The position numbers were made by a program, and so were the translations under genes. From UHGV virus genome UHGV-0355102: a stretch of 11,853 bases of DNA. One strand, 5' to 3'. The notes under the pieces are model-generated. The model was not told the DNA's origin. It worked only from the letters and a program-made list of their open reading frames with translations, and did no database searches. Shown here in pieces: positions 1 through 11,853 of the stretch; positions within the stretch are counted from its first letter, which is position 1; each line of letters starts with the position of its first letter. The stretch comes from a virus.

Positions 1-599
1 GCCACTCTGGCGGTTTCAGCATGTTGTCTGGCATCATTCGCGTCTGCTGCCGCGGCCTTTTCAGATTCGCATGCCCGGGTCGCCGCTTCTGCAGCTTCAC
101 TGGCTTTTTGTCCGGCTTCAGCCGCCCTGCTGGTTGCCGTCTTTGCACTGTCAGATGCACTCTTCGCACTGGCTGCTGCACTGTCTTTTGACTGTGTGGC
201 CTGAGTGTTTTTTGTCGCCGTGTCTTCATTCAGGCGACGAATAGTGGCAAGGTCATCAGCCACATTATTCTGTATCTGCCGGAAATCTGTCAGCAGTTCT
301 CCGGGTATGCTCACCTCAACAAGACTGCGGCGTAACAGCATATTGAGCGTCACCGTACTTTCGGTCCCCTCAATACGCACACGTCCGTAGACAGCAGTCT
401 TCCCTTTCACCGTCACCGAAACCGCATACTCCCCCGGATCCATCGTCATTCCGTAATATCCACCTTCACGGGTCACTGCCGACGCACTGGTGCCGCTGAG
501 CGCATCCGGTGAAACTGTCAGCGCCGTCAGGGTAATATTTGCTCCTGATATCGCCTCACCATCAGGAGATTTCAGCGTCCCCGAAACAACAACACTCAC
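1..599 (-). CDS. Tail fibre protein, N-terminal part (partial; continues beyond the left edge of the window)
   Basis: The minus-strand frame is open from 599 down to position 1; I checked every in-frame triplet and found no stop. GTG start at 597-599 overlaps the TGA stop of the upstream gene (GTGA), with a GGAGG Shine-Dalgarno 6 nt upstream. The translation begins MSVVVSGTLKSPDGEAISGANITL..., a beta-rich domain of about 90 aa followed by Ala/Ser/Lys-rich repeats (DSAAASAKSASDSAKTATSRAAEAGQKASEAAEAA), which matches from memory the N-terminal architecture of enterobacterial prophage tail fibres. Not in the ORF track because it has a GTG start and no stop inside the window. Confidence 0.6.
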   Translation of the reverse strand, partial: MSVVVSGTLKSPDGEAISGANITLTALTVSPDALSGTSASAVTREGGYYGMTMDPGEYAVSVTVKGKTAVYGRVRIEGTESTVTLNMLLRRSLVEVSIPGELLTDFRQIQNNVADDLATIRRLNEDTATKNTQATQSKDSAAASAKSASDSAKTATSRAAEAGQKASEAAEAATRACESEKAAAADANDARQHAETARV

Positions 600-1246
600 A
601 CTCCACCTCCGTTAAACACTTTTTTACGGGCAGACAATGCACTGTCTGCCCCCTGTTTGATCCCAAGTTGCTCAACAAAACTCTGATAATGCTGCGCAGC
701 CAGCCCCGATTCTGCGCCACCGGCAGCATCCTTACTGAAAGCGCGAAACAACATCCAGTCCACCAGTGGGTTAACATAAGCATCTTCCAGTGGAACTGGC
801 GTATCATCGTCCTGCGTCAGAACATACACTGCCTCCGGTATCCGGCTTACCACTGCATCAATACTTATCTCTTTGTCAGGAGCAGGAAACAGCCAGAATA
901 CGCGCGGGGACAGGTCGTTGCTGATAAAACATTCAGGAATGCCCTTCATTGTGAGCCACTCAGGATACTGCGCATCCAGCACCTCCCGGGATAATGGTCT
1001 GACTGCACTACCGTCACTGAGGCATATCACGTCAAGAAGTTGTATTACACCATCGGGCAAAACCTGACGGGCGCCCGGAACACAACTGATTGTTTCCAGG
1101 CTTGCGCCAGCATCCGGTCTCGCCAGAATCACTGCCCTCACAGCATCATTGTAATAATCGCACAATTCCTGCAGGGGCCAGCGAACCATCATCGGGTCAA
1201 CCAGTTGTGTATTCACACGTCCGATGATTTCTGTAATCGTCGTCAT
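596..1246 (-). CDS. Hypothetical virion/morphogenesis protein (216 aa)
   Basis: 216-aa ORF in the same orientation as the structural operon, with its ATG overlapping the stop of the upstream gene at 1246 and its stop overlapping the tail fibre start. No family recognised from sequence alone. Confidence 0.55.
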   Translation of the reverse strand: MTTITEIIGRVNTQLVDPMMVRWPLQELCDYYNDAVRAVILARPDAGASLETISCVPGARQVLPDGVIQLLDVICLSDGSAVRPLSREVLDAQYPEWLTMKGIPECFISNDLSPRVFWLFPAPDKEISIDAVVSRIPEAVYVLTQDDDTPVPLEDAYVNPLVDWMLFRAFSKDAAGGAESGLAAQHYQSFVEQLGIKQGADSALSARKKVFNGGGV

Positions 1247-1809
1247 CAGTAAAACCTTTGTCTGCGGACAGGATTGCGGTATGAGGAGTACGGACTTGTC
1301 GTCAGTGTGTCGCGATATGCCCGACGGATACCCTCAGAAAACAGCACAGAGAAATACTGTGCGCGCGACGGGTCTGACCATGAAACCCCGGTCTGCATGA
1401 ACAACCGTTCAAGCGCCCCTGCTGCCACTTCTTCAGACCATGCCCGCAGTTCATCCTGCACCTGACGGCTCCCTGCTTTCGGAGCAACGGCATAAAGCAC
1501 ACTCACCTCTCCGGGCGAACAGGCAAAATGCATTACCCGCCCCGGGCGGATTTCTACATCATGACCGGCAAAAAGCTCACGCCCGTCAGCGAGGATACGA
1601 ATAATATGTACGCACTCTTCATTCTCCGCGTCATATGGCAGCACACAGTCCTCTCCAGCTGACGGTGACAGCGTGGCTTCACGGCGGCACAACAGGGACT
1701 GACGGCAGAATGCCACTGCCGACATGGATAACGCATCCGTCATCATAATGTTCAGCGGACCACTGATATGGCGACGGACATACGGTAAAAAATCAGTCAG
1801 TTCCGCCAT
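1246..1809 (-). CDS. Hypothetical virion/morphogenesis protein (about 187 aa)
   Basis: The six-frame ORF runs 1246..1869, but the ATG at 1807-1809 (MAELTDFLPYV...) is preceded by GGAGA about 8 nt upstream and gives only a 17-nt overlap with the upstream gene, so I prefer it. Function unknown. Confidence 0.5.
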   Translation of the reverse strand: MAELTDFLPYVRRHISGPLNIMMTDALSMSAVAFCRQSLLCRREATLSPSAGEDCVLPYDAENEECVHIIRILADGRELFAGHDVEIRPGRVMHFACSPGEVSVLYAVAPKAGSRQVQDELRAWSEEVAAGALERLFMQTGVSWSDPSRAQYFSVLFSEGIRRAYRDTLTTSPYSSYRNPVRRQRFY

Positions 1810-2254
1810 GCTGTTCAGTCTCCGCAACACGACGGCGAAATGCCTCACGCACACGGATACGGAATGCATCAGCCGTTTCTTTCGGGTCTTTGTGAATATT
1901 CAGCTCTTCTGCCTCACACAACGTTGCCAGCCGTGCGGACGTGAGTTTGCTCAAATCCACATCCTGACCACCAACGCTAACCACAAAACTGTTCTCCGCT
2001 TCTGCAAGAGCAACCTGTTCTCTTTCCTGCGCCTGCTGTGCCTGCCGCAACTGCTCATCCTGTTGTTGCTTTTTCAGTACGCCATCAAGCTCTTCATGAC
2101 GAACCCAGACGTCAGAAAAGGCCAGCAACTGCCAAGCAAACGCATTGTCAACATGCACCGGCTCAAGACGCGGGAACAGTGTACGACTCCCGGTAAGGGT
2201 ATCCTTTTTCACGGGTTTGGGGCCGATATAGACAACGGCAATTTTTTCGCTCAT
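1793..2254 (-). CDS. Hypothetical protein (153 aa) in the head/neck module
   Basis: ORF with GGGGAA Shine-Dalgarno upstream of the ATG at 2252-2254; central Gln/Glu-rich predicted helical segment. Function unknown. Confidence 0.5.
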   Translation of the reverse strand: MSEKIAVVYIGPKPVKKDTLTGSRTLFPRLEPVHVDNAFAWQLLAFSDVWVRHEELDGVLKKQQQDEQLRQAQQAQEREQVALAEAENSFVVSVGGQDVDLSKLTSARLATLCEAEELNIHKDPKETADAFRIRVREAFRRRVAETEQHGGTD

Positions 2255-2268
2255 ATAATTCCCCGGGT

Positions 2269-2291
2269 AAAAAAGCCCGCATGACGCGGGC
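2269..2291 (-). terminator. Intrinsic terminator-like hairpin (minus strand) downstream of the 129-aa gene
   Basis: On the minus strand: GCCCGC - 5-nt loop - GCGGGC (plus coordinates 2275-2291) followed directly by TTTTTT (plus-strand A-run 2269-2274). Confidence 0.45.
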
Positions 2292-2304
2292 CAGAAGGTT
2301 TATA

Positions 2305-2694
2305 TCAGTAACCCACCACGGTATAACGCAGCAGAACATTCAGGGTGCCGGTTGCAGCGGCAGTCTTAATGGTGACAGTAACCAGCTCCCCGTCACGCAG
2401 TGTGGTGTACGGCTCCACGGGCACATATCTGGCAAATTTTGCAGAAACAGCTTCGCTGTTATCGATGAGAACATGCTCACCGGACTTAATGCTGACGGTT
2501 GCAGTACCCAGACCGCCCGTTGAAACCAGTTGCAGTGAGTTGATACGGATACCAACTGGCAGTGAAAGAAGATGAATAACACTGTCCGCTTCCGCAGCGT
2601 TCACTGTAAACACACCTTCTGCCACCGACTCATTACCGTGCGTACCTGAATAAATCCGCTCACTCAGTGATGGAGCAAGGATAGTCTTTGCCAT
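2305..2694 (-). CDS. Hypothetical small virion protein (129 aa), possibly a capsid-associated/decoration protein
   Basis: ORF immediately downstream of the major capsid gene with AGGAG upstream; predicted beta-rich; bracketed by hairpin plus T-run elements on both sides. Functional assignment is a guess from position only. Confidence 0.5.
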   Translation of the reverse strand: MAKTILAPSLSERIYSGTHGNESVAEGVFTVNAAEADSVIHLLSLPVGIRINSLQLVSTGGLGTATVSIKSGEHVLIDNSEAVSAKFARYVPVEPYTTLRDGELVTVTIKTAAATGTLNVLLRYTVVGY

Positions 2695-2709
2695 AATTAA
2701 TGACTCCTG

Positions 2710-2732
2710 AAAAAGCCGGGCGATAACCCGGC
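2710..2732 (-). terminator. Terminator/attenuator-like hairpin after the capsid gene (minus strand)
   Basis: On the minus strand: GCCGGG - TTATCG loop - CCCGGC (plus 2715-2732) followed by TTTTT (plus-strand A-run 2710-2714), just downstream of the capsid stop at 2749. Confidence 0.4.
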
Positions 2733-2748
2733 ATGGGGAAAGGAAAAA

Positions 2749-3963
2749 TCACAGCTTCACTGCGGTATCAATGGCAATCACGCCGTGATCCTGCATCTTG
2801 CCGCTCTTCTCGGGGAAACGGATTTTTTTCAGACCGTTGATCCAGCTGATTGCTATCTCAGTACGGTTATCCATATCCGTTTTCTTCTCAACCATGTTGA
2901 AGTGACCGCCGCCCTTCTGACCGTACGCATTCGCCAGCGCCTGAGCCCCCAGCAGCATGGCACGGTCGATGTTGGTTGCAGCAGCCTTTTCTGCCATCGT
3001 TGCCGTAAGGTCATTGTTCGACACCATAACCTTTGACCCCTGATAGAAACGGATCGGCATCCCCGCATACTTACGGACCAGAATATTGCGCCACATCGCA
3101 CATTCGCCTTTGAACAGCGGATGGTTAAAACCTTTTGAGCGGTTTACGGCACGCGTCATCATCTGGTTCCAGTCCTTGCCGGACGTGGAGGTGTACCAGT
3201 CATTCCACTGACGCGGCGTGACGTAGAGGACGTAATACGGATCTTCGCCATACAATTCATCACCGGACAGGCGTACCGGTTGTAACGGATGAGCCATCTC
3301 GTCAATAAACAACGAGAGATTATCGACCAGCGCAAGGGTGAACAGGTCAGACTGGTCAATACTCTCAAAACTCGTCGCATCCCCACCGAAAAAATGACGA
3401 TCATGCGTCGGCGGCAGTACGTCGTTGATCATGATTTTTTTGAATTCAGGGTGATCTGCCGTTGGCAGAATGGTGTCATCAGCAACAAAATCACCGCGGG
3501 CACCGGCAAGATGCACTATCGCACACTGGTCTTGCAGGTCGTTAAAGTACGTACCCAGCAGCGTTCTGGCAGAGGATGCCAGGTTGAACTTCGTACGCTG
3601 CTGGCTCATACGTCCGCCCGCATCCACCAGGTGACGGCCCTGATTAATTTTCAGGGAAAAATCAGCATGGCTGAGGTCTTCACCACGGCCTTCAACGCGC
3701 TCATCCCCCATCGTCGGACGTTTAGAGAGTTTGTGCATGATGCTGAACGTCACTTCATCACCGGCCTGTTTGTTGAGGTCCGTGATTCGCACAACCGGTG
3801 CACCTGCACTGGTCTGCTTCGTGCTTTTCTTGTCAGGCGAAACTGCTTTTGGTGCATCCTGCTGTTCAGTGAGAATATTCACCATCGAGCGGTTTCGGTT
3901 GGCAGCCGTGAAAAGCGCCACCTGATACAGCTTATTCGCCTGGGCTGTTGTTACTGTGGTCAT
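2749..3963 (-). CDS. Major capsid (coat) protein, putative
   Basis: 404-aa ORF with a strong GAAGGAG Shine-Dalgarno, directly downstream of an acidic scaffold-like gene in a terminase-portal-scaffold-capsid order. Size is consistent with a capsid protein. Assignment is by position and size, not a verified alignment. Confidence 0.7.
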   Translation of the reverse strand: MTTVTTAQANKLYQVALFTAANRNRSMVNILTEQQDAPKAVSPDKKSTKQTSAGAPVVRITDLNKQAGDEVTFSIMHKLSKRPTMGDERVEGRGEDLSHADFSLKINQGRHLVDAGGRMSQQRTKFNLASSARTLLGTYFNDLQDQCAIVHLAGARGDFVADDTILPTADHPEFKKIMINDVLPPTHDRHFFGGDATSFESIDQSDLFTLALVDNLSLFIDEMAHPLQPVRLSGDELYGEDPYYVLYVTPRQWNDWYTSTSGKDWNQMMTRAVNRSKGFNHPLFKGECAMWRNILVRKYAGMPIRFYQGSKVMVSNNDLTATMAEKAAATNIDRAMLLGAQALANAYGQKGGGHFNMVEKKTDMDNRTEIAISWINGLKKIRFPEKSGKMQDHGVIAIDTAVKL

Positions 3964-3985
3964 TACGTCAGTACTCCTTCAGTGG

Positions 3986-4993
3986 TTACCCGAGTTTTTC
4001 CAGAATCGCGTCAATTTCAGCGTCCGTCATGCCTCGCATGGCTGCTTCAATTTCGGTATGGGAAGCACCAAGTAACCGTTCAAAATTATCACCGGTTCCG
4101 ACGGAAGCCGTGTTGCCAAGCTCTGACGGGGAAGCAGGCACTGCCATCTCCCGTTCAGCGGCTTTCACTTTTTCTTCTGCCGTTTTCCGGATATCAGTGT
4201 TGTCTGCCTTGTCATTAGAAGGCGGCTCACTGGCTTCACCGAAAGCGAGCTGCGTACGGCGGGCCACTTCGGCGAAACGTTCAGTGAGCGGTTTGTCTTT
4301 CCATACGGGGTCATTCTGGAGCTTCCCGTCGATGGATACGGCAACCGAGAAGCGATCCGGATCGGAGTTCTGCCACGTTTTCAGCACCGGCACGTCATTC
4401 ATTGCATCAAGAACCGGTGATAAATCCTCACCACCATGACCTTCTGCCTGCTGTGCTGATTGCTGAACACGGGACTGGAGATAGTTATTTTTACGGATAA
4501 GCGAAGCCACCGCGTCACCAATTTCCGGATACATCTCCCTGATACGGGCAATCTTCTCATCAGAGATTTTTTCGTTTTCCGGTAACGGTGCGGGTTTCAT
4601 ACCGGCCTGGTGAATCTGAGACGTCAGCAGTTCAACCAGGCGTTTTTCTTCGGCTATCTGTCCCCGAAGAAGTGCGGCTTCCTGTTCGGCCCGCTGCTTA
4701 CCGGAACGTTCAGCCTCAAGGACTTCATAGGGAATGACGTGTTTACCATCGCGGGTGAGCACACCCTTCGCCTCCGGCTCCTTCACGTCCTGCGTCTGCT
4801 CAGCACTGGCATCCGGCGTCGGTGCCGCAGTGTTATCGCCCGTCTGTGTCTGTGCTGCCTCATCCGCATGATTTTCTGTGGCGGCCTCTGTCACGCCGTC
4901 CTGTTCGTGACCGTCAATATCCACATCCCCAAGTCCTTCCAGCATTTTTTCCAGTTGTTCCGGGGTTTCTTCACCCGTAAATTCAAAATCCAT
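3986..4993 (-). CDS. Scaffolding protein, putative
   Basis: 335-aa ORF between portal and capsid genes; highly acidic, Ala/Glu/Gln-rich, with a low-complexity predicted helical composition typical of phage scaffold proteins; GGAG Shine-Dalgarno 7 nt upstream of the ATG. Confidence 0.55.
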   Translation of the reverse strand: MDFEFTGEETPEQLEKMLEGLGDVDIDGHEQDGVTEAATENHADEAAQTQTGDNTAAPTPDASAEQTQDVKEPEAKGVLTRDGKHVIPYEVLEAERSGKQRAEQEAALLRGQIAEEKRLVELLTSQIHQAGMKPAPLPENEKISDEKIARIREMYPEIGDAVASLIRKNNYLQSRVQQSAQQAEGHGGEDLSPVLDAMNDVPVLKTWQNSDPDRFSVAVSIDGKLQNDPVWKDKPLTERFAEVARRTQLAFGEASEPPSNDKADNTDIRKTAEEKVKAAEREMAVPASPSELGNTASVGTGDNFERLLGASHTEIEAAMRGMTDAEIDAILEKLG

Positions 4994-5106
4994 AAATAAC
5001 TCCGCATGGTCTGTTTATCGGACAGATCCGAATGGTTGAGTAAATAAGGCTTATCGCTGCCCCCGCGAATAAGCGCACCGCTCCCGGGACGCTTATCTCC
5101 GGAAAC

Positions 5107-5130
5107 AAAAAACCCCGTACGATGACGGGG
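5107..5130 (-). terminator. Intrinsic terminator-like hairpin between the portal and scaffold genes (minus strand)
   Basis: On the minus strand: CCCCGT - 6-nt loop - ACGGGG (plus 5113-5130) followed by TTTTTT (plus-strand A-run 5107-5112), immediately after the portal stop at 5151-5153. Confidence 0.5.
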
Positions 5131-5656
5131 TTCCGTTAAGTTCAGGATATTCATAGCGGCAATTCATGCATCCGCTGTTGTAGTGTATGTAGCATCTGTT
5201 GCTGAAGAGCTTCCTGCTCCTGTTCCATATTCTGTATGCCGGTAATGATTTCTGCCGTATGCGCCTGGTTGAGCGCATCCACATAACGCTGTCCCTGTGC
5301 CGCGGCGACATCCCGTTGTGCGCCAGCATTATCCCGTTGCGCAGCTGCCTGTGCCCTGGCAGCTTCTGCTTCCAGTTTAGCCACCCGGCCTGCCATTTCG
5401 CGCATCTGCAGTTCCTGTTGTTGCTGCTCCTGGGCCTGTTGCTGCTGAGCGGCCTGCTGCTCTTCCGGGGTCATCTCATCCGGTGATTTTGGTGTCCCCA
5501 GCGCCGCACGAATACGTTCGACAAATTCCTGTTTCTGCGGCACATCCAGAAGGTTAACCCACAGGTCGAGCACGACGGCCTGCACCTGAGGTGGCAGCCC
5601 CTGAATAACCTCTGACATTCGCTGTGCAAGCTGTGCCTTAAACGCCGGTGTCTGCT

Positions 5657-5830
5657 GAACAGGAGCCAGCGCAATATGTGTATTTAACCTTGAAATATCA
5701 TTGGTCAGTTCACCATTATCACCTTCAGCATTGAGAACAATGGGATGTTTTCCGGGTTGAACAGGATTTTCAGGTTGCCAGCCAGCAGTTTCAGGTCATG
5801 CAGGAGTCGGAAAAACTTATCCAGGACACG
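5657..5830. repeat. Left 174-bp repeat block: two adjacent 87-bp units (5657-5743 and 5744-5830)
   Basis: 5657-5743 is the exact reverse complement of 6060-6146, and 5744-5830 is the exact reverse complement of 6147-6233. Both checked base by base at 87/87 identity. Confidence 0.9.
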
Positions 5831-6059
5831 ATGGGGGTTTATTCCGCATTTCTCGGGCAGGATTCAAATGCATCGTCCGGCGTGGCGATCAGCAACCTGG
5901 TGGAGCAGGGAGCCACAACCCTTGCCGAAATCAACGATAACTACCAGTTTGCCTGCCAGCAGGTGGGAAGGCTGTTGCTCGCTTATCTTCTCGATGGCCT
6001 GAAAAAGCGGCGTAATCATGCGGTGGTGATTAATCGTGATGATCGCCAGCGTCGCCAGA

Positions 6060-6233
6060 CCATTGTTCTCAATGCTGAAGGTGATAATGGTGAACTGACC
6101 AATGATATTTCAAGGTTAAATACACATATTGCGCTGGCTCCTGTTCCGTGTCCTGGATAAGTTTTTCCGACTCCTGCATGACCTGAAACTGCTGGCTGGC
6201 AACCTGAAAATCCTGTTCAACCCGGAAAACATC
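6060..6233. repeat. Right 174-bp repeat block: two adjacent 87-bp units (6060-6146 and 6147-6233)
   Basis: Inverted partners of the left block; the pairs are interleaved rather than nested (left = X'Y, right = XY'), so the region is not a simple inverted repeat. All four units are portal coding sequence. Confidence 0.9.
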
Positions 6234-7468
6234 AGCAACGCTTTTCTGATTTTTTCGGGCCGGATTCAGTTTAATAATGCCATCCGGGCGCTCGATCTGC
6301 TCCATCAGCTCGTTGTCTGACAACTGGGTGGCATCCTCGTCCATAATCACGCGTTTGGCCTGAAGCAACCACGTCAGTTTTATACGACGAAAATTCACCT
6401 CATCCTGTGCCGGAATGGCCCGGGAAATCAGCCCGTAAGGCTCCCCGGTTTTATCCTTCCGGTATCCCCAGAAGGGAACCAGCGGGAACATCCCCTGCGG
6501 CGCACTGCAGGGGCGATCCACAATAAAGTGCGGTCCCACAAACCAGGCTTCACGAATACGACTTACCCGCCCGACTCTCACCTGCACCCGCCCGGATGCC
6601 ACAGCCACCGCATGCATCAGATTATTTTTATCAAAGGCCACCACCCGTCCATTACTGAGTTCAATCACCGGAAGACGCTCGAATGTACGGTAATAAACCA
6701 CCTGAAGCAGCACACGACGGCGTTCACGCTGAAGCCATTCGTTCTCCTTACGATCCCATGACTGATACTCTTCCCATGCACTCATCAACGGACTGGGCTG
6801 GCCTTCAGTAACCGTGGTATCGACAAAACCACGCCAGTCATCAATGGCATAATCGATAACCTGAGCCATTCCCGGGAATGTGGCTTTTGCCTCATCGGTA
6901 TCCATCCAGCGGCGGCGCATCAGCCAGCGGCAGTCACTTAAATCAGCTTCCCGGCTGAGCCAGTCCCAGAACACTTCATTCCGGCTGACAGTAGACACCT
7001 TAAACTCAGGCCCGAACGGATCGCTGTTCCGTCTGACCTCCACCCAGCTGAGCCCCGCCTTGATTTGTTCCGCATAGGCATCAGAGCGGGCTTTATTCAT
7101 ATTGCCAAGGCGGCATGCATCGGCAAATTCAGCATTAATAGCTTCAGCCAGTTTTTCAGTTTCATCATCTGGCTCGTCTGACATCACCACCAGATCAGTC
7201 CGTGTTTTGGCCTCCATTCCCAGAACACCATCAACGGTAGGCGCGATGAGGTTATGGATAGTCATCGGCTGACCGCGATCTTTCAGTACCTGAAGAACTT
7301 CTGGTGGCAACTGGTCACCATCGTAATACGCACAGGCCTTGTTTGCGGCATCGCGCCATTTAGGCTGACTGTCAATATCAGAACAAAGCGCCTGTAACTG
7401 GCGCTGAGAAAAACGCGGCGTGGCTCCGTTGTCGTTTTTCGTCGCCATGGTATTAGTTTCATTTTTCA

Positions 7469-9175
7469 TCAGTGAGCCATCCAGTGTGTGGTTCTGCGTT
7501 TATCCGTTTTCTGTCTTACCCTCACCGGCATTCTGGCGCGCATCTCCTGGGCAATCATGTAGCTCATAAGCTGATCATCAAAACAGCCTTCCTGTGCATT
7601 CATGGAGCCTTTCGCGTCATAAACGTAGGTGTTCATTTCTGATAATGTGCCCGTCCAGCGGATCCCCGACAGGCCGTTATTCAGCAGCGTTTTCATTCCC
7701 TCAGTCAGGACCGGTTTACTCTGGCGGGTTGTCAGCCAGCCAAGACGGGGCGTATCGTCGTCATATGCCTGGTCAAGGTGCTGTTCGTTGTAGATATAAC
7801 GCGTCGGATAGAGTTCCCGGAGTTTCAGGATAACGGCATGTCCGTGATTGTTACGCTCCGGCCCCACAAACGCGTTGTTGTACATACGGCAGACCTGCGC
7901 AATGAGATGAGCGAAAAGCTCCGCATCGAGATGACCAAACCAGTGGGCTACCTGCTCACCATTACTACATCTGATGATATCCAGCGATGAGCGGTCTCCG
8001 TGCTCCAGCCCCTCAGCGGTATCCGCTCCGCATACATACTCTTCATCCGGATCCGGTAGCTCCCAGACCAGCAGATAATTCATCAGCGTCCGGTGCTGTT
8101 CGGCTTTATTCCCGTCACGCAGAGACTGCGCTTTGGTCTTCGTTCCTGTAACCGGTTCAATGTCATAAACAATCAGCGGTGGCGAACAGAATGACTCTGC
8201 CTGCAGCGTGCTTTCCGCACTGAACACCCGTCGTCCGGACGTCAGAAACGCCTCCTGTGGTGTTGAGGGAAACTCCTGCTTCATTTCCTCACGCTGTTCA
8301 GTTTCCTTGCAGATGTACCAGTGTTTCTGCTCATCGGTAAGCGTGATGTTCATTGCTTTTTCAACCGCAGAAAAATACGCTGTTTTTTCCCGTGACAGCT
8401 TAAGTCCGCTTTCCGGCACTCTGGCGCTGTATTTGAGATCCTGCCACCAGGCGTAAAAATGGAATTTATAATCCTGTGGCGTCAGCGCCAGCCCTGATGC
8501 AGTGATTTCCTGTGCCCGGTTACTCATCTCGTAAAAATCGCCACCCACACCTTCAGCAGTGGATTCATCAAAAATAATGCACTCATCAGAGACGGCATTA
8601 AGTGTACCGGTTCGCAGCTCTTTCGCCTTAGCCGGATATTTTGCGCAAATTTTGCCGTGCTCTGAGATATGCAGGCGCTGCACCGTACCTGAACGGAATG
8701 AGGTTGCCACCTGGATACTCGAGCCGTGCCCAAACAGGATATAGCCACCGCTGGCTCCGCTACGACGTTCAACGATGGTGAATGAGGCTCTCAGCCAGTC
8801 AGGAAGATGATCAAACGGTACAGCAATTTTGGTGCGGAAAATTTCACTGGCAGCCTGTTTATCCTGAGCGACAATCCCGCATTTGAGATGCGGTATGAAT
8901 AATGCCTGGTCGAGAAGATAAATATCAATGGCCGTGGAAAACCCCAGCTGGCGTGCTTTCAGGATAATATTTTTATTGTGCATGCTCCGGAACAACTGGC
9001 GCTGCGCCGGTCGCATTCTGAAGGTGACCAGCTCACCTTTTTCGTTCTGTATCTTGTAGAGATGATTGAGCCGCCACCAGGGATTGCTCAGTTTAGTCAT
9101 GATGAACAGACGTTGTTCGGCCTCTGTCATTTCTGACGGTTCATCACATCGCGGTTCATTCTTCCGGAATGTCAT
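7469..9175 (-). CDS. Terminase large subunit
   Basis: 568-aa ORF between the small terminase and portal genes; GGGGAG Shine-Dalgarno 5 nt upstream of the ATG at 9173-9175; stop overlaps the portal ATG (ATGA). Size and position are typical of a terminase large subunit; a possible Walker-A-like segment lies near the N-terminus. Confidence 0.8.
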   Translation of the reverse strand: MTFRKNEPRCDEPSEMTEAEQRLFIMTKLSNPWWRLNHLYKIQNEKGELVTFRMRPAQRQLFRSMHNKNIILKARQLGFSTAIDIYLLDQALFIPHLKCGIVAQDKQAASEIFRTKIAVPFDHLPDWLRASFTIVERRSGASGGYILFGHGSSIQVATSFRSGTVQRLHISEHGKICAKYPAKAKELRTGTLNAVSDECIIFDESTAEGVGGDFYEMSNRAQEITASGLALTPQDYKFHFYAWWQDLKYSARVPESGLKLSREKTAYFSAVEKAMNITLTDEQKHWYICKETEQREEMKQEFPSTPQEAFLTSGRRVFSAESTLQAESFCSPPLIVYDIEPVTGTKTKAQSLRDGNKAEQHRTLMNYLLVWELPDPDEEYVCGADTAEGLEHGDRSSLDIIRCSNGEQVAHWFGHLDAELFAHLIAQVCRMYNNAFVGPERNNHGHAVILKLRELYPTRYIYNEQHLDQAYDDDTPRLGWLTTRQSKPVLTEGMKTLLNNGLSGIRWTGTLSEMNTYVYDAKGSMNAQEGCFDDQLMSYMIAQEMRARMPVRVRQKTDKRRTTHWMAH

Positions 9176-9971
9176 CCAGTCTCCCCGAATTACTCATTTC
9201 ATGCAGCGATGACACGATGTCACTGACAGGCGTAACAACGCCCCGACGCTGGCTGGTCAGAATATCGGTTTCCGCTCTGAGTTTATCTCTGGCAGCGTTG
9301 GTTCTTTCCCGGTCAGCACGAAGTTTTGGTGCTGTTTCAGCCAGAACGTCCAGCGTCAGCAATGAGCGTTCAATTGACTCGATACGGGCAATATTCCGGT
9401 CAAGAGCCTGTTCAGCTTTGAGTATTTTGTCGTACAGAGCAACGCGGGTTTCCACGTCAGCCGCCTCTTTCAGGTCGGCGAACATTTTTTTCAGTGTTCC
9501 TGTTACTGAAAGTGCGCGGGCCCGGGTAAACACCAGTTCATCGGCAAGTTCCATTCCGACTGCATCATCTATGAGGTTATCTGCCTCGAGATACTTCGCG
9601 TATCCACGGTGTCTGACGGCGTGGGTGTTACGCTGAGAAAAAGCATTTGAAGGTGGCAAAAGTCTGGAACCACGAGTCCGTTTCGTTTCTGCCAAATTTG
9701 CGCATTTTTCATCACAACCATCATCGCCTGAAGGCTCGTCATGACTGGAGTTGCCGTCAGATTTCTGCGCACTTTTTTGATCATCAATTTGCGCATTTTT
9801 CTGCGCACTTTTCTCTGTATTTCTGGGGGAGTGTTTGCGCAGTTTAATGTACCGCCGAGCCGTGTCATAACTGATATTGTTCTGACGGCACCAGTCCTGA
9901 AGCTTTATGCCGGTTTTGACATGTTCGCGTCGAAATGCCTGCTCCAGCTTTTTCCAGTCCAGCTTTGCCAT
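9156..9971 (-). CDS. Terminase small subunit, putative (DNA-binding packaging protein)
   Basis: 271-aa ORF immediately upstream of, and overlapping by 20 nt, the large terminase gene; AAGGTG Shine-Dalgarno; basic N-terminus consistent with a DNA-binding domain; charged, predicted helical C-terminal half. Assignment is mainly positional. Confidence 0.55.
   Translation of the reverse strand: MAKLDWKKLEQAFRREHVKTGIKLQDWCRQNNISYDTARRYIKLRKHSPRNTEKSAQKNAQIDDQKSAQKSDGNSSHDEPSGDDGCDEKCANLAETKRTRGSRLLPPSNAFSQRNTHAVRHRGYAKYLEADNLIDDAVGMELADELVFTRARALSVTGTLKKMFADLKEAADVETRVALYDKILKAEQALDRNIARIESIERSLLTLDVLAETAPKLRADRERTNAARDKLRAETDILTSQRRGVVTPVSDIVSSLHEMSNSGRLDDIPEE
9695..9812. repeat. Cluster of short direct repeats inside the small terminase gene
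   Basis: AATTTGCGCATTTTT occurs at 9695-9709 and 9786-9800; TTTCTGCGCACTTTT occurs at 9762-9776 and 9798-9812; a related GTTTGCGCAG lies near 9833-9842. On the coding strand these give KSAQK/KNAQ peptide repeats. Confidence 0.6.
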
Positions 9972-10510
9972 GTCACCTTCTGACGTTCTCTGTTAAAAAC
10001 TGATGCACAATGACTGCTGTAAATTTTCAGATTTCACACAGCAGAGCCATGTCTGATTAATGTTTAACCTTATTTAGGTTATATCCGCTTCATTCCACTA
10101 CAGCACCAGATAGGCTGCCTCGCGGATAAATGCCAAAGTCTCCTGATATAGAAACCCGTCGCCACATCGAGCGCTGATCAACATTTGTATATTCACTGCG
10201 ACAGAAAGAATTTATTTTATTGAATAGTTAGAAATACAGAATTGCATGCTTTATAAGCATTGACGCACACTTCATTTTTAGCAATATATTCTGTTCTCAT
10301 AGACGATCAGCCCTGCATGCACTGCCGGACACCGTCGGCAATTTTACAGACCTAAGAGGCAATACCAAAAAGCTAACGCGCTTTATCAAGACTTGAACAA
10401 CCAACCAATAAAAAAAGCACCAGTACCGCTACCAATGCCCATTTCGTCGTTGTTCACAGCATTCTGTGTACCCACTGTATTTCGCGTCATATCACCACGT
10501 CAGACAATCC

Positions 10511-10539
10511 TTAAGGATTACATAAGATTTACGCATAAT
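10511..10539 (+). promoter_or_regulatory. Candidate sigma-70-like promoter for the cargo gene (weak)
   Basis: TTAAGG (10511-10516), 17-bp spacer, CATAAT (10534-10539), about 35 nt upstream of the ATG at 10574. An alternative is TTGACG at 10260-10265 with TATATT at 10285-10290 (19-bp spacer). Both are hexamer matches picked by eye only. Confidence 0.2.
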
Positions 10540-10573
10540 AATGCCCATTTTCAACACAGACAAGGGAATTTAT

Positions 10574-11155
10574 ATGTTAAATCAAACGCTAACAAAATCT
10601 CTTCTTATATTTTTACTTGTCATAATCGTTTCTGTATCCATCATATACATTGTAAGAACTCCAGTCAGACTTGATGTGAACGATGTCACTGAGATTAACC
10701 AGAAACATCCCATTATTTTTCTCATCCGGCATGGGGAAAGATGCGATCGCTCCCAAAGAATATGTCTTTCAGCACATGAGGGAATCACAGTAAACGGAGC
10801 TAACAAAGCTCAACAATATGGAGATAAATTCAGAAGAATGTTTCCATACTACAGTCTCTATTCTACAGACACACTCCGAACAATGCAGACAGCCACTTTT
10901 TTTTCGGGAGGTAAGACAGCAACTATTCCGGACATATCGACATGTGATGATAACGCAGTAAATAATATCCTTAAAATATCAAAATCAGATCATGTTACTG
11001 TGATTTTCACACATAATCACTGTCTGTCCAGAATTGCAAAAAAAATGAATGGATGGAGATTTAAACCTGATTATATGGGCACACTGGTTCTGCATCGGGA
11101 AAATCACAATCTGATTCTCGACGGACATTTAAAACCAAACGAGCTTACCCAGTGA
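10574..11155 (+). CDS. Ais/PmrG-family histidine phosphatase (LPS core heptose(II)-phosphate phosphatase-like), exported; prophage cargo gene
   Basis: 193-aa ORF from the ATG at 10574 with AAGGGA 7 nt upstream (the track ORF starts at an earlier ATG, 10541). Hydrophobic N-terminal signal/anchor, then an RHGERCDRS motif (histidine phosphatase RHG signature) and IFTHNHCL...FKPDY, which match my recollection of E. coli Ais across most of the length. Opposite strand to the phage genes and visibly AT-rich. Confidence 0.8.
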   Translation: MLNQTLTKSLLIFLLVIIVSVSIIYIVRTPVRLDVNDVTEINQKHPIIFLIRHGERCDRSQRICLSAHEGITVNGANKAQQYGDKFRRMFPYYSLYSTDTLRTMQTATFFSGGKTATIPDISTCDDNAVNNILKISKSDHVTVIFTHNHCLSRIAKKMNGWRFKPDYMGTLVLHRENHNLILDGHLKPNELTQ

Positions 11156-11206
11156 TCCATTTGTTGATAATGCACTGGCATTGATTCAGGTTATATCTCT
11201 CCTCAT

Positions 11207-11231
11207 AAAAAAGGCCAGCGATTGAGCTGGC
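11207..11231 (-). terminator. Intrinsic terminator after Rz/Rz1 (minus strand), possibly bidirectional
   Basis: GCCAGC - 6-nt loop - GCTGGC (11214-11231); on the minus strand the hairpin is followed by TTTTTT (plus-strand A-run 11207-11212). It sits between the convergent Rz stop (11236) and the cargo gene stop (11155). Confidence 0.5.
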
Positions 11232-11235
11232 TCTG

Positions 11236-11694
11236 TTAATCGAGGCATTGCATCCTGATGTACTCCTGCAGGTAGTTAACCTGCGCGGTTATCTTGTCGA
11301 TTCCACTTCGGAGACGGTAATAATTGAGTTCAGCATCTGCTGTAAGTCCTGAGCTTTCTCCATCGCCCATGCCGCTGGCTCCGGTCGTTGACTTTGCACA
11401 GGTGGCGGCGACTTGCAGGCGCTTACGCCCAGCAGAAACATCAGCACGGAGACTTTCAATAGTCGCGTTAGCATCAGCAAGCTCCCTGGTGTATCTGGCA
11501 TCGAGTGCAGCAACATCACGCTGGCGCTGCTGTATGTCAGCAATGGTGGCGTTCGCCTGGCTGAGTTTTGTCTTCGCATCATCTCGCTGCTCTTTGTAGG
11601 TGATGGCGTTATCACGGTAATGGTCTGTTGCCAGCCACAGCGATCCACAACCAAGCAGCAGGACAATAAGCACGCCATACAGCACACGATTCAT
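11236..11694 (-). CDS. Rz: Spanin, inner-membrane subunit (Rz, i-spanin)
   Basis: 152-aa protein from the ATG at 11692-11694 (MNRVLYGVLIVLLLGCGSLW...HYRDNAITYKEQRD...RQRDVAALDARYTRELADA...), closely resembling lambda Rz as I recall it: N-terminal transmembrane helix plus a periplasmic coiled coil. The track ORF starts 19 codons further upstream, which I do not accept. Confidence 0.9.
   Translation of the reverse strand: MNRVLYGVLIVLLLGCGSLWLATDHYRDNAITYKEQRDDAKTKLSQANATIADIQQRQRDVAALDARYTRELADANATIESLRADVSAGRKRLQVAATCAKSTTGASGMGDGESSGLTADAELNYYRLRSGIDKITAQVNYLQEYIRMQCLD
11289..11474 (-). CDS. Rz1: Spanin, outer-membrane lipoprotein subunit (Rz1, o-spanin), embedded in Rz in the +1 frame
   Basis: A 61-aa ORF lying entirely inside Rz in another frame: MLTRLLKVSVLMFLLGVSAC, a lipoprotein signal with a VSAC lipobox, followed by a proline-rich mature peptide KSPPPVQSQRPEPAAW. 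The exact start is uncertain; an alternative Met lies 11 codons downstream. Confidence 0.75.
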   Translation of the reverse strand: MLTRLLKVSVLMFLLGVSACKSPPPVQSQRPEPAAWAMEKAQDLQQMLNSIITVSEVESTR

Positions 11695-11695
11695 A

Positions 11696-11809
11696 TCACC
11701 ACCAACGGATTGCCCAGACCAGAACAGCAATTGCCACAATACGAATGGCAAAAGCTGCCGCTCTTGTTAAATCCAGACTTGCTGGCGTCTCCACCTCAAT
11801 GCCTTTCAT
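11696..11809 (-). CDS. Small single-pass membrane protein (37 aa), or the C-terminal end of a longer gene entering from beyond the right edge
   Basis: ATG at 11807-11809 with GAGG about 9 nt upstream; encodes MKGIEVETPASLDLTRAAAFAIRIVAIAVLVWAIRWW; stop 1 nt before the Rz ATG. The same frame is open to the window edge (11853), so it could instead be the tail of a longer upstream gene. The other two frames contain stops. Confidence 0.3.
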   Translation of the reverse strand: MKGIEVETPASLDLTRAAAFAIRIVAIAVLVWAIRWW

Positions 11810-11853
11810 AATGGACAACCTCAGAAAGAATCTTTTATACTTCCTCACAGGGA

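What the first reader, a model, noticed from the sequence alone, without database searches (positions are those of the whole stretch)
9972..11235. AT-rich moron between lysis and packaging modules encodes an exported Ais/PmrG-like phosphatase
The only plus-strand gene (10574..11155) sits in a visibly AT-rich island flanked by about 600 bp of non-coding AT-rich DNA, convergent with Rz/Rz1 and sharing a terminator hairpin with them. Its product has the RHG histidine-phosphatase signature and, as far as I recall the sequence, Ais-like blocks (RHGERCDRS, IFTHNHCL, FKPDY) plus an N-terminal signal/anchor. Ais/PmrG dephosphorylates LPS core heptose(II). A phage-borne copy could remodel the host LPS core for lysogenic conversion: altered phage receptor, superinfection exclusion, or changed antimicrobial-peptide susceptibility. 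The protein looks divergent from chromosomal Ais rather than a copy of it.
Basis: partly seen in the sequence, partly recalled or inferred. Interest (0 to 1): 0.65.

Follow-up and report, generated by a model that had tools for sequence, protein, structure and literature searches.

The report
Prophage-borne Ais/PmrG-like LPS phosphatase moron
A 1-kb AT-rich insert in a Shiga-toxin-type E. coli prophage carries a second, divergent copy of the host enzyme thought to remove a phosphate from the LPS core, and its promoter looks like those switched on by the host PmrA/BasR envelope-stress regulator.

Summary
ORF 10574-11155 (+, 193 aa) is the only real plus-strand gene. It lies in a 38% GC island (about 10147-11208; flanks 52%) between terS and Rz/Rz1 of a 933W-like (Sepvirinae) prophage.

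The product has the histidine-phosphatase fold with all catalytic residues, and passes the NCBIfam Ais/PmrG subfamily cut-off. It fails the PmrG equivalog cut-off and is 43% identical to K-12 Ais. Its N-terminus looks like a membrane anchor rather than Ais's cleavable signal.

RefSeq already names it (WP_000934362.1). It occurs in 43 of 5426 complete E. coli genomes, including O104:H4 outbreak strains. Divergent alleles (54-85% identical here, dN/dS about 0.2) occupy the same lysis-to-packaging slot in unrelated lambdoid prophages.

New here:
- A PmrA/BasR-box-like repeat, 10 nt, then a -10 hexamer is conserved upstream in five lineages, with the spacing of K-12 arnB, eptA and pmrR.
- The "non-coding" upstream DNA contains a decayed small-lipoprotein gene.
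- The hairpin belongs to the Rz end.

Substrate, expression and phenotype remain inference. Verdict: a real, functional moron and a new mobile clade of a known enzyme family. Moderate interest.

The parts
9156..9971 (-). Terminase small subunit gene (terS). Left backbone neighbour of the island.
   Evidence: ORF. Annotated as terminase or DNA packaging protein.
9972..10146 (.). terS-upstream backbone DNA shared with Sepvirinae that lack the phosphatase gene. Not part of the moron.
   Evidence: blastn of window 9400-10125/10146 to P13374, PhiR12_3 and Stx2_EH0787 gives 77-80% identity; homology stops at 10125-10146. GC 0.417.
10147..11208 (.). The AT-rich island (moron cassette): lipoprotein-gene remnant, promoter region and phosphatase gene.
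   Evidence: Boundaries come from comparison with phages lacking it. GC 0.383 against 0.52 in the flanks.
10307..10486 (-). Pseudogene of a small lipoprotein (phrog_7528 family), divergent from the phosphatase gene. It has three in-frame stops (10454-10456 TGA, 10373-10375 TAG, 10352-10354 TAG), no start codon, and a preserved lipobox LLVGC.
   Evidence: Frame translation. Intact 60-63 aa homologues are in L006 5569-5760 and L018 3644-3826. phrog_7528 E = 1.6e-35. DNA 10237-10498 is 74-79% identical across lineages.
10415..10440 (-). Terminator-like hairpin plus T-run on the minus strand, inside the lipoprotein remnant. Function unknown.
   Evidence: Scan. Fold dG -14.7 kcal/mol, z = -4.0.
10510..10526 (+). 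PmrA/BasR-box-like direct repeat CTTAAGgattaCATAAG (1 mismatch to YTTAAK-N5-YTTAAK).
   Evidence: It is the only site in the window, matching on both strands. It is conserved at -64 to -70 from the ATG in five divergent lineages. The geometry matches K-12 arnB, eptA and pmrR.
10537..10542 (+). Predicted -10 hexamer AATAAT, exactly 10 nt after the box. The predicted transcription start is about 10549-10551.
   Evidence: The 10-nt spacing and a -10-like hexamer (AATAAT, TATAAT or TATATT) are conserved in all box-bearing lineages. The three K-12 control promoters have the same spacing. This is an inferred promoter, not a mapped one.
10562..10567 (+). Shine-Dalgarno-like AAGGGA, 6 nt before the ATG.
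   Evidence: Sequence. An AGGA/GGGA-type motif is conserved in homologues.
10574..11155 (+). Ais/PmrG-like histidine phosphatase gene, 193 aa (RefSeq WP_000934362.1).
   Evidence: dN/dS 0.13-0.27.
10577..10657 (+). N-terminal hydrophobic helix (residues 2-28). Probable uncleaved signal anchor.
   Evidence: A 19-residue uncharged run with mean KD 3.06 and no Ais-type c-region. AlphaFold predicts a helix at residues 2-28. This is inference; no trained signal-peptide predictor was available.
10727..10735 (+). Codons for R52-H53-G54, the RHG motif with the nucleophilic His.
   Evidence: R52 and H53 are invariant in 23- and 28-sequence alignments.
11012..11014 (+). Codon for H147, the second catalytic His, in THNHC.
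   Evidence: Invariant column.
11214..11231 (-). G+C-rich hairpin with a T6 run on the minus strand. It is the terminator-like end of the Rz/Rz1 cassette and at most a weak bidirectional terminator for the phosphatase gene.
   Evidence: Conserved in Stx2_EH0787, which carries a Rha-like gene instead.
11236..11694 (-). Rz (i-spanin) with embedded Rz1 (o-spanin, about 11289-11474). Right backbone neighbour.
   Evidence: ORFs. The 'lysis protein' annotation (L002 21265-21723) maps to these coordinates.

Best explanation
**What it is.** A moron: about 1.06 kb of foreign, AT-rich DNA inserted in the lysis-to-packaging junction of a 933W-like short-tailed lambdoid prophage. This is the slot where lambda carries bor. 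It is read against the late operon.

**The protein.** It encodes a catalytically intact histidine phosphatase of the Ais/PmrG subfamily. An N-terminal transmembrane helix probably holds the protein at the periplasmic face of the inner membrane.

**Expression (inferred).** Transcription comes from its own promoter, in which a PmrA/BasR box replaces the -35 element. The lysogen would then make the enzyme when the host PmrAB (BasSR) system is activated (Fe3+, Al3+, mild acid), together with arnB, eptA, pmrR and chromosomal ais.

**Activity (inferred).** The most likely substrate is the one assigned to PmrG: the phosphate on heptose II of the LPS inner core. Removing it lowers surface negative charge and changes the core epitope.

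**Status of each step.**
- Shown here: insertion, composition, fold, catalytic residues, family membership at subfamily level, purifying selection, conservation of the box and its spacing.
- Inferred: membrane topology, PmrA dependence, substrate, phenotype.
For: **Insertion and composition**
- Relatives have this slot empty or filled with a Rha-like gene.
- GC is 0.383 against 0.52 in the flanks.

**Enzyme**
- Pfam His_Phos_1 is above its gathering score. NCBIfam NF011945 scores 202 bits against a cut-off of 142.
- 43% identity to K-12 Ais across the catalytic domain.
- R52, H53, E55, R56, R59 and H147 are invariant; R102 is nearly invariant.
- AlphaFold model has pLDDT 91.4. Foldseek matches to histidine phosphatases (phosphoserine phosphatase, SixA, PGAM5) have probability 1.0.
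- dN/dS is 0.13-0.27 between lineages.

**Export**
- 19-residue hydrophobic helix.
- Invariant Cys57, Cys64 and Cys150 fit an oxidising compartment.

**Regulation**
- CTTAAGgattaCATAAG is the only PmrA-box-like site in the window, matching on both strands.
- A box with 0-2 mismatches, exactly 10 nt and a -10-like hexamer sits at -64 to -70 in five lineages whose proteins are 54-76% identical to the window's in pairwise comparison. Some of their upstream DNA is otherwise not alignable.
- K-12 arnB, eptA and pmrR show the same box, 10 nt and hexamer layout.
- PMC10570014 states that the pmra-box replaces the -35 element. Its K. pneumoniae pbgP box has CCTAAG as second half-site, deviating at the same position as CATAAG here.

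**Substrate**
- 'PmrG dephosphorylates Heptose II' is stated in PMC8129183, citing Nishino 2006.

**Mobility of the cassette**
- The same slot is used in prophages with lambda-type Nu1/gpA or Terminase_6 packaging modules and either GH108 or lysozyme lysis modules.
- 22 IMG/VR viral contigs carry it.
Against: - It fails the PmrG equivalog model (113 bits against 170) and is only 37-43% identical to chromosomal Ais/PmrG. The substrate could therefore differ.
- Even K-12 Ais is annotated only as 'putative'.
- The box has one mismatch here. It is degenerate (2 mismatches) in the L004-L007 lineage and lost in L021 (83% identical protein).
- No transcription start, expression or binding data exist. 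QseB or another OmpR-family regulator could use such a site.
- Chromosomal ais is present in 5413 of 5426 genomes, so a simple duplicate function would be redundant.
- Deleting pmrG in a PmrA-constitutive E. coli did not change polymyxin B resistance (PMC8129183), so any phenotype may be subtle.
- No trained signal-peptide predictor was available. Cleavage after S22 cannot be excluded.
Confidence: 0.55

Rival explanations
1. Same enzyme fold and location, but a different substrate from PmrG. Candidates are another phosphorylated envelope molecule at the periplasmic face: heptose I phosphate or diphosphate, lipid A 1-diphosphate made by LpxT, undecaprenyl phosphates, or a phosphorylated sugar or protein. 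The LPS Hep(II) annotation would then be transferred wrongly.
For: - It fails the PmrG equivalog cut-off.
- Identity to Ais/PmrG is 37-43%.
- It has a different N-terminus, an anchor instead of a cleavable signal.
- The host already has ais, so a mobile copy is easier to explain if it does something different.
- The histidine phosphatase fold serves many substrates; Foldseek hits range from phosphoserine phosphatase to SixA and RosC.
Against: - It passes the curated Ais/PmrG subfamily model with a wide margin (202 against 142).
- Family-specific blocks beyond the catalytic residues are invariant with Ais (ERCDRS, GIT, THNHC).
- The PmrA-type promoter places it in the same LPS-modification regulon.
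Confidence: 0.25
2. The enzyme is as described, but the gene is not under PmrA/BasR control. The box-like repeat would be a conserved site for another factor (QseB, another OmpR-family regulator, H-NS or an anti-silencer), or simply part of a constitutive or silenced AT-rich promoter.
For: - The box has 1-2 mismatches in three lineages and is lost in L021.
- AT-rich DNA is enriched for such motifs.
- The scan tool found no canonical sigma-70 promoter upstream on the plus strand.
- There is no experimental evidence.
Against: - Perfect boxes (0 mismatches) occur in the L018, L019 and L117 lineage.
- The 10-nt spacing to a -10-like hexamer is invariant across lineages and matches three K-12 promoters (arnB, eptA, pmrR) that are PmrA/BasR-dependent by established knowledge rather than by test here.
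- The absence of a -35 element is what a PmrA-dependent promoter should look like (PMC10570014).
- The chance rate of the full motif in a 12-nt window of AT-rich DNA is about 0.004, and that figure is an overestimate.
Confidence: 0.3
3. The protein is a regulator rather than an enzyme, as suggested by the legacy name 'transcriptional activator AfrS' that one source gives to a truncated homologue, and by some copies lying next to fimbrial operons.
For: - P0066 carries the name 'transcriptional activator AfrS'.
- A Salmonella allele (P0007) lies next to a CS1/Tcf-type fimbrial operon.
Against: - There is no DNA-binding domain. The only Pfam match above its cut-off is His_Phos_1.
- The complete catalytic set is invariant.
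- The N-terminal membrane helix places the domain outside the cytoplasm.
- P0066 is a frameshifted or truncated 150-aa form.
Confidence: 0.03
4. It is ordinary chromosomal ais, or a decaying non-functional passenger, with no phage-related role.
For: - The adjacent lipoprotein gene is decayed.
- The portal gene in this window is broken, so this particular prophage copy may be defective.
Against: - Chromosomal ais is a separate locus next to arnB, present in 5413 of 5426 genomes at 95% identity or more. This gene is 43% identical to it and sits between Rz and terS.
- The ORF is intact, 99-100% conserved in 43 genomes, and under purifying selection across lineages.
Confidence: 0.04

Closest known systems
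Ais (E. coli b2252) / PmrG (Salmonella): PmrA-regulated LPS core heptose(II)-phosphate phosphatase
   Same: - Same NCBIfam subfamily (NF011945, 202 bits).
- Same catalytic residues and family-specific blocks (RH[GA]ERCDRS, GIT, FTHNHC, KPDY).
- About the same length, with an N-terminal export segment.
- A promoter with PmrA-box architecture.
   Different: - 37-43% identity, and below the PmrG equivalog cut-off (113 against 170).
- Located in a prophage moron rather than next to the arn operon.
- A 19-residue hydrophobic anchor followed by a conserved RTP, instead of a typical cleavable signal (…GLGTHA|AW).
- Found in about 1-1.5% of complete E. coli genomes, against more than 99% for ais.
IncI1 (R64-type) plasmid 'TraG' histidine-phosphatase protein
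   Same: - Another mobile-element-borne Ais-like protein, about 45% identical over 75% of the query.
- Annotated as LPS core heptose(II)-phosphate phosphatase in the O104:H4 ESBL plasmid table, where it has a 0.79 share in the first of three score columns whose headings were not retrieved (PMC4288162).
   Different: - It lies inside the tra operon of conjugative plasmids (1440 PLSDB records), not in a phage moron.
- No evidence of its own PmrA-type promoter was sought here.
- It forms a separate clade.
Lambda bor and other lysis-to-packaging junction morons (Rha-like genes in Stx2a phages)
   Same: - The same genomic slot, directly downstream of Rz/Rz1.
- Opposite orientation to the late operon, as for lambda bor (established knowledge).
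- Envelope-directed cargo of the kind expressed from the prophage.
   Different: - Unrelated protein: Bor is an outer-membrane lipoprotein, whereas this is an enzyme.
- Stx2a phages carry a Rha-like gene on the late strand in this slot.
Phage-encoded LPS-modifying lysogenic-conversion enzymes (O-antigen acetylases, the Gtr glucosylation genes)
   Same: A prophage gene that chemically alters host LPS from the periplasmic face, with possible consequences for receptor use and immunity.
   Different: - Those act on O-antigen by adding groups. This would remove a phosphate from the inner core.
- It appears wired to a host two-component system. No such phage case was found in the searchable literature.

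Membership tests
Histidine phosphatase superfamily, branch 1 (PF00300) | RHG motif with the nucleophilic histidine | tested here: met
   R52-H53-G54 is present, and R52/H53 are invariant in 28 homologues.
Histidine phosphatase superfamily, branch 1 (PF00300) | Remaining catalytic set: additional Arg residues and the second His | tested here: met
   R56, R59 and H147 are invariant. R102, in the T-x-R-T-x-Q-T-A block, is conserved in at least 90% of sequences.
Histidine phosphatase superfamily, branch 1 (PF00300) | Score above the Pfam gathering threshold | tested here: met
   28.9 bits against 21.7, although only profile positions 1-67 aligned.
Histidine phosphatase superfamily, branch 1 (PF00300) | Alpha/beta phosphoglycerate-mutase-like fold | tested here: met
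   The model has pLDDT 91.4. All top Foldseek PDB hits are histidine phosphatases with probability 1.0 and TM-scores of 0.5-0.69.
Histidine phosphatase superfamily, branch 1 (PF00300) | Phosphatase activity | not testable with these tools
   Needs an enzyme assay with an H53A control.
Ais/PmrG LPS core heptose(II)-phosphate phosphatase | NCBIfam subfamily model NF011945 (PRK15416) cut-off | tested here: met
   202 bits against a cut-off of 142, with residues 10-187 aligned to profile positions 15-199 of 201.
Ais/PmrG LPS core heptose(II)-phosphate phosphatase | NCBIfam equivalog model NF052369 (PmrG) cut-off | tested here: not met
   113.4 bits against a cut-off of 170. It is therefore a paralogue within the subfamily, not an equivalog.
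Ais/PmrG LPS core heptose(II)-phosphate phosphatase | Export to the periplasmic side | tested here: inconclusive
   A strong N-terminal hydrophobic helix is present and Cys residues are invariant. Whether it is cleaved or acts as an anchor, and its topology, were not determined.
Ais/PmrG LPS core heptose(II)-phosphate phosphatase | PmrA/BasR-dependent transcription | tested here: inconclusive
   In silico only. The box, 10 nt and -10 layout is conserved in five lineages and matches K-12 arnB, eptA and pmrR. There are no binding or expression data.
Ais/PmrG LPS core heptose(II)-phosphate phosphatase | Chromosomal position divergent from arnB (pbgP) | tested here: not met
   It lies between Rz and terS of a prophage. 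Chromosomal ais sits next to arnB.
Ais/PmrG LPS core heptose(II)-phosphate phosphatase | Removes the Hep(II) phosphate of LPS core | not testable with these tools
   Needs core-oligosaccharide mass spectrometry.
Phage moron | Inserted between genes that are adjacent in related phages | tested here: met
   PhiR12_3 has terS and Rz separated only by about 300 bp. Homology to the window stops at 10146 and resumes in Rz.
Phage moron | Nucleotide composition distinct from the phage backbone | tested here: met
   GC 0.383 against 0.52; the lowest comparable window elsewhere is 0.493.
Phage moron | Own promoter and terminator | tested here: inconclusive
   The promoter is inferred. The downstream hairpin has its T-run on the other strand and belongs to the backbone.
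Phage moron | Expressed from the repressed prophage | not testable with these tools
   Needs lysogen RNA-seq or a reporter.
AfrS-type 'transcriptional activator' (a source's name for a homologue) | DNA-binding or regulatory domain | tested here: not met
   Only His_Phos_1 was found above its cut-off. The named protein P0066 is a truncated phosphatase homologue.

The most novel reading that the evidence does not exclude
Mobile elements of enterobacteria (lambdoid prophages here, IncI1 plasmids as 'TraG') carry their own membrane-anchored Ais paralogues. They use them to edit the phosphate pattern of the host LPS inner core on demand.

The prophage version has captured a host PmrA/BasR-dependent promoter, so the lysogen's surface is remodelled exactly when the envelope-stress regulon fires. 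The resulting core change would act as a conditional exclusion or masking device against LPS-core-dependent phages and IncI1 PilV-mediated mating, and not merely as extra metal or peptide tolerance.
Probability: 0.15. Interest if true: 0.75.

Novelty: new member of a known kind. Interest (0 to 1): 0.45.

Why it matters
If the model is right, a prophage found in the O104:H4 outbreak lineage and about 1% of complete E. coli genomes adds an LPS-core-editing enzyme to the host's PmrAB regulon. PmrAB is the same circuit that controls polymyxin, Fe3+ and antimicrobial-peptide tolerance.

That would be lysogenic conversion acting on the inner core rather than the O-antigen, and an instance of a moron plugged into a host two-component system.

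It is directly testable with a reporter fusion, a BasR footprint and core-oligosaccharide mass spectrometry.

It also flags that the blanket RefSeq name 'LPS core heptose(II)-phosphate phosphatase' is applied to at least three distinct clades (chromosomal, prophage, IncI1 plasmid), of which only PmrG has biochemical support.

Tried and rejected
- **Rfam.** A search of 9800-11853 at E <= 1 gave no RNA family.
- **PADLOC.** No defence-system match for either protein.
- **PHROGs.** No family for the phosphatase, so it is absent from the isolated-phage protein families. Only one GenBank phage record, GER2, carries it.
- **PDB sequence search.** No hit.
- **The 34-aa minus-strand ORF 10386-10490.** It looked conserved by tblastn. 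I rejected it as a gene. It is the alternative frame of the decayed phrog_7528 lipoprotein gene, whose real frame is intact in L006 and L018 and carries three stops here.
- **The 204-aa start at 10541.** Rejected: it has no Shine-Dalgarno sequence and overlaps the predicted -10 hexamer. RefSeq uses 10574.
- **A canonical sigma-70 promoter.** None was found upstream on the plus strand by the scan tool. This fits an activator-dependent promoter without a -35 element but does not prove one.
- **Chromosomal ais upstream regions.** No proximal box on the ais strand at one mismatch or fewer, apart from the arnB-side box. Chromosomal ais therefore could not serve as a positive control, and arnB, eptA and pmrR were used instead.
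- **Literature.** Searches for phage-borne Ais/PmrG, the locus tag and the WP accession found nothing relevant.
Full report
**1. The observation**

The window has one convincing plus-strand ORF, 10574-11155 (193 aa). An upstream in-frame ATG at 10541 would give 204 aa. Sliding GC falls to 0.37-0.42 across about 10050-11250, against about 0.50-0.55 elsewhere.

| Region | GC |
|---|---|
| Finding region 9972-11235 | 0.392 |
| CDS 10574-11155 | 0.375 |
| Left flank | 0.524 |
| Right flank | 0.513 |
| Lowest equally long window elsewhere | 0.493 |

The gene is convergent with Rz/Rz1 (11236.., minus strand) and lies upstream of terS (9156-9971, minus strand).

**2. Where the DNA comes from**

The region 9972-11235 is 99-100% identical to 43 of 5426 complete E. 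coli genomes. These include the O104:H4 outbreak strains, strain ML35 and an O10:H32 water isolate. It also matches one deposited phage, GER2, an Stx1 phage of the Sepvirinae, genus Oslovirus.

[quoted passage not shown] It lies in a 933W-like prophage with this gene order: Q, SASA esterase, holin, lysozyme, Rz, this gene, terS, terL, portal, N4-gp56-type capsid. It is the only plus-strand CDS in that stretch. The identification as an Ais-like gene in a prophage is therefore already in public annotation. No paper dealing with it was found.

**3. It is an insertion, with definable edges**

Related Sepvirinae share the terS gene and about 155-175 bp upstream of it, up to window 10125-10146. They share Rz from 11243 onwards, or from 11209 including the hairpin.

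Between those points the slot varies:
- PhiR12_3 has only about 125 bp.
- P13374 and the Stx2a phages have a Rha-like gene on the late strand.

The island is thus about 10147-11208 (1062 bp, GC 0.383). This is the slot where lambda carries bor, also antiparallel to the late operon (established knowledge).

The hairpin at 11214-11231 is real: dG is -18.5 kcal/mol on either strand. Its T6 run is on the minus strand, and it is conserved in phages without the moron (L014 3046-3105). It is the end of the lysis cassette, not a terminator that came with the moron. On the plus strand it is followed by UCUGUUAAUCG, so it is at most weak.

**4. The protein**

Family matches:
- Pfam His_Phos_1 scores 28.9 bits against a cut-off of 21.7, over the N-terminal third only.
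- NCBIfam NF011945 (PRK15416), the Ais/PmrG subfamily, scores 202 bits against a cut-off of 142, nearly end to end.
- The PmrG equivalog model NF052369 scores 113 against a cut-off of 170, so it fails.
- BLASTP to K-12 Ais gives 43% identity over 158 residues.

In alignments of 23 and 28 homologues, R52, H53, E55, R56, C57, D58, R59, S60, C64, H147 and C150 are invariant and R102 is nearly so. The Arg/His catalytic set of the superfamily is complete.

The AlphaFold model is confident (pLDDT 91.4, pTM 0.85). It shows a long N-terminal helix at residues 2-28, then an alpha/beta domain. All top Foldseek PDB hits are histidine phosphatases: E. histolytica phosphoserine phosphatase, the histidine-phosphatase domain of MutT1, SixA and PGAM5. 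Their probability is 1.0, TM-scores are 0.5-0.69 and sequence identity is 13-17%. No solved structure is detectable by sequence.

The N-terminus differs from chromosomal Ais. The phage clade has a 19-residue uncharged segment with mean KD about 3.0, bracketed by K8 and R28 and followed by a conserved RTP. Ais/PmrG has a shorter core plus a polar c-region, …GLGTHA|AW. I read this as a probable uncleaved signal anchor. This is inference, because no trained predictor was available. The invariant cysteines fit a periplasmic domain.

**5. A diversified, mobile clade under selection**

The big-database search returns a graded series of E. coli and Salmonella proteins at 85, 83, 76, 72, 70 … 50% identity, before reaching chromosomal Ais at about 37-45%.

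Contexts of the divergent alleles:
- P0006 (72%), P0020 (64%) and P0003 (83%) all sit convergent with the last lysis gene and before the packaging genes.
- The surrounding backbones differ: GH108 endolysin with ParB/TAGT/Terminase_6; GH108 with lambda Nu1/gpA; lysozyme/Rz1 with Nu1/gpA.
- 22 IMG/VR viral contigs carry alleles of 60-100% identity.

Pairwise dN/dS among seven lineages is 0.13-0.27, with dS up to saturation. The gene is maintained by purifying selection.

In complete E. coli genomes, 83 of 5426 have a nucleotide-detectable allele. Chromosomal ais is present in 5413 of 5426. The phage gene is therefore an additional paralogue, not a replacement.

Other mobile homes:
- IncI1-type conjugative plasmids carry a homologue about 45% identical. 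There are 1440 PLSDB records, and it is annotated traG in some of them. In the O104:H4 ESBL plasmid study's table, TraG is labelled 'LPS core heptose(II)-phosphate phosphatase' (PMC4288162).
- A 43% identical copy lies next to an EAL gene and a SPATE autotransporter on plasmid-like contigs.
- A Salmonella allele is flanked by IS elements beside a CS1/Tcf-type fimbrial operon.

No PHROG family covers the protein.

**6. The promoter, the main new point**

The pattern YTTAAK-N5-YTTAAK with at most one mismatch matches only one site in the 11.8-kb window, on both strands. That site is CTTAAGgattaCATAAG at 10510-10526, 64 nt before the ATG. Exactly 10 nt later lies AATAAT (10537-10542).

The same architecture recurs upstream of divergent alleles:

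| Lineage | Protein identity to window | Box | Mismatches | -10-like hexamer after 10 nt |
|---|---|---|---|---|
| Window | - | CTTAAGgattaCATAAG | 1 | AATAAT |
| L114-L116 | 76% | same box as the window (L115 differs by one base in the N5 spacer) | 1 | AATAAT |
| L018, L019, L117 | 64-67% | CTTAAGgatttTTTAAG/T, CTTAAGgattcCTTAAG | 0 | AATAAT |
| L004-L007 | 72% | ATTAATtgcctCATAAG | 2 | TATAAT |
| L120-L124 | 54% (60-61% by tblastn) | GTTAAGattttCTTAAT | 1 | TATATT |

The upstream DNA of L120-L124 is otherwise not alignable with the window.

Lineages without the motif:
- It is lost in L021 (83% identical protein).
- In L015 the upstream DNA is replaced by an IS element.
- It is absent from the plasmid copy L008.

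Three K-12 promoters of the PmrA/BasR regulon (established knowledge) show the identical layout in the sequence fetched here:

| K-12 promoter | Box | Hexamer after 10 nt |
|---|---|---|
| arnB | CTTAAGGTTAAGTTAAT | TAAAAT |
| eptA | CTTAAGGTTGGCTTAAT | GAGCAT |
| pmrR | CTTAAGGTTCACTTAAT | CATACT |

PMC10570014 states that the pmra-box (two hexamers separated by 5 nt) replaces the -35 element, and that PmrA contacts the repeated TAA bases. Its K. pneumoniae pbgP box has CCTAAG as second half-site. That is a deviation at the same position as CATAAG here, with TAA retained.

A generous background estimate for the full motif falling in a 12-nt window of AT-rich DNA is about 0.004.

I therefore propose that the moron is PmrA/BasR-activated, with a transcription start near 10549-10551 and a 5'UTR of about 24 nt carrying AAGGGA (10562-10567). 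This also disposes of the 10541 start codon. It remains an in-silico inference. QseB or another OmpR-family protein could use the site.

**7. What else is in the 'non-coding' 600 bp**

DNA 10237-10498 is 74-79% identical across lineages. In L006 and L018 it encodes a 60-63-aa prelipoprotein on the minus strand (…LVPFLLVGC|VSLDKARQL…). This belongs to phrog_7528 (E = 1.6e-35, function unknown) and has no Pfam or NCBIfam match.

In the window the same frame reads REIQWVHRML*TTTKWALVAVLVLFLLVGCSSLDKAR*LFGIAS*VCKIADGVRQCMQG*. It has three in-frame stops at 10454-10456, 10373-10375 and 10352-10354, and no start codon. It is a pseudogene.

A 34-aa ORF (10386-10490) that looked conserved by tblastn is just its alternative frame. 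A terminator-like hairpin at 10415-10440 (minus strand) lies inside it.

**8. Mechanism and rivals**

Best model, overall confidence about 0.55:

| Step | Confidence |
|---|---|
| It is a moron | 0.95 |
| Active periplasm-facing Ais-subfamily phosphatase | 0.85 |
| PmrA/BasR control | about 0.6 |
| Hep(II)-phosphate is the substrate | about 0.45 |

PmrG's Hep(II) dephosphorylation is taken from PMC8129183, citing Nishino 2006.

Main rivals:
- The same fold with another envelope substrate. Supporting this are the equivalog failure, the different N-terminus, and redundancy with the universal chromosomal ais.
- Regulation by something other than PmrA.
- A regulatory 'AfrS' role. This is rejected because there is no DNA-binding domain and the catalytic set is invariant.
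- Ordinary chromosomal ais. This is refuted.

The expected phenotype may be subtle. Deleting pmrG did not change polymyxin B resistance in PmrA-constitutive E. coli (PMC8129183).

**9. Verdict**

It is not a discovery of an unknown gene, because RefSeq names it. It is a mobile, membrane-anchored clade of the Ais/PmrG subfamily, so I rate it a new member of a known kind.

The conserved PmrA-type promoter is the most interesting and most testable element. Interest 0.45.

Noticed in passing
window 5657-6233 (portal gene, minus strand, about 5325-7469): The portal gene is broken by a rearrangement.
- Segment 5744-6146 is the reverse complement of the reference order (100% identical to the O104:H4 prophage).
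- It is flanked by two perfect 87-nt inverted-repeat pairs: 5657-5743 with 6060-6146, and 5744-5830 with 6147-6233.
- This amounts to inversion of a 229-bp core plus an 87-bp duplication on each side, adding 174 bp.
- None of 5426 complete E. coli genomes has this arrangement.
- It is either an assembly fold-back artefact or a real lesion that inactivates the prophage.
   Followed up: partly
window 1-5743 versus 6147-11853: Mosaic identity to the O104:H4 2011C-3493 prophage. The capsid, tail-proximal and distal-portal part is 96.6% identical. The part from proximal portal through terminase, moron and Rz is 99.9% identical. The break coincides with the portal rearrangement.
   Followed up: no
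window 10307-10486 (minus strand); L006 5569-5760; L018 3644-3826 and 4623-4805: A small lipoprotein gene (phrog_7528, function unknown, lipobox LLVGC, three Cys in the mature 30-aa part) lies next to the phosphatase gene in several prophage lineages. It is a three-stop pseudogene in the window and is duplicated in L018-L020.
   Followed up: yes
L001 (phage GER2, MG710528.1) 12603-13184: GER2's GenBank annotation calls only the C-terminal 90 codons of the phosphatase gene (12912-13184), plus a spurious antisense ORF. tblastn shows the full 193-aa frame intact at 99.5% identity. The deposited annotation is therefore truncated, not the gene.
   Followed up: partly
PLSDB plasmids (e.g. LC567080.1 traG; O3K_25647 of the O104:H4 ESBL plasmid): IncI1-type conjugative plasmids (1440 records) carry an Ais-like histidine phosphatase inside the tra region ('TraG'). 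In the TraDIS table of PMC4288162 its three score columns read 0.79, 0.21 and 0.00; the column headings were not retrieved. Its role is unclear. It may relate to PilV-LPS core recognition.
   Followed up: no
L008-L011 (plasmid-like contigs) 6001-6582; L015/L016 5001-5582: Further homes of the family. A 43% identical copy lies between an EAL-domain gene and hydrolases upstream of a SPATE autotransporter. A 70% identical Salmonella copy is flanked by IS elements next to a CS1/Tcf-type fimbrial operon. A truncated homologue bears the legacy name 'transcriptional activator AfrS'.
   Followed up: no
E. coli complete genomes, porcine ETEC strains (e.g. NZ_CP122604.1): The roughly 66% nucleotide-identity allele is concentrated in pig ETEC isolates, with up to three copies per genome.
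   Followed up: no
Genome-contig loci L042-L102: Distant homologues (24-35% identity, RH[GA]ERCDR motif kept) are widespread in Pseudomonas chromosomes. The family is therefore not confined to Enterobacteriaceae.
   Followed up: no
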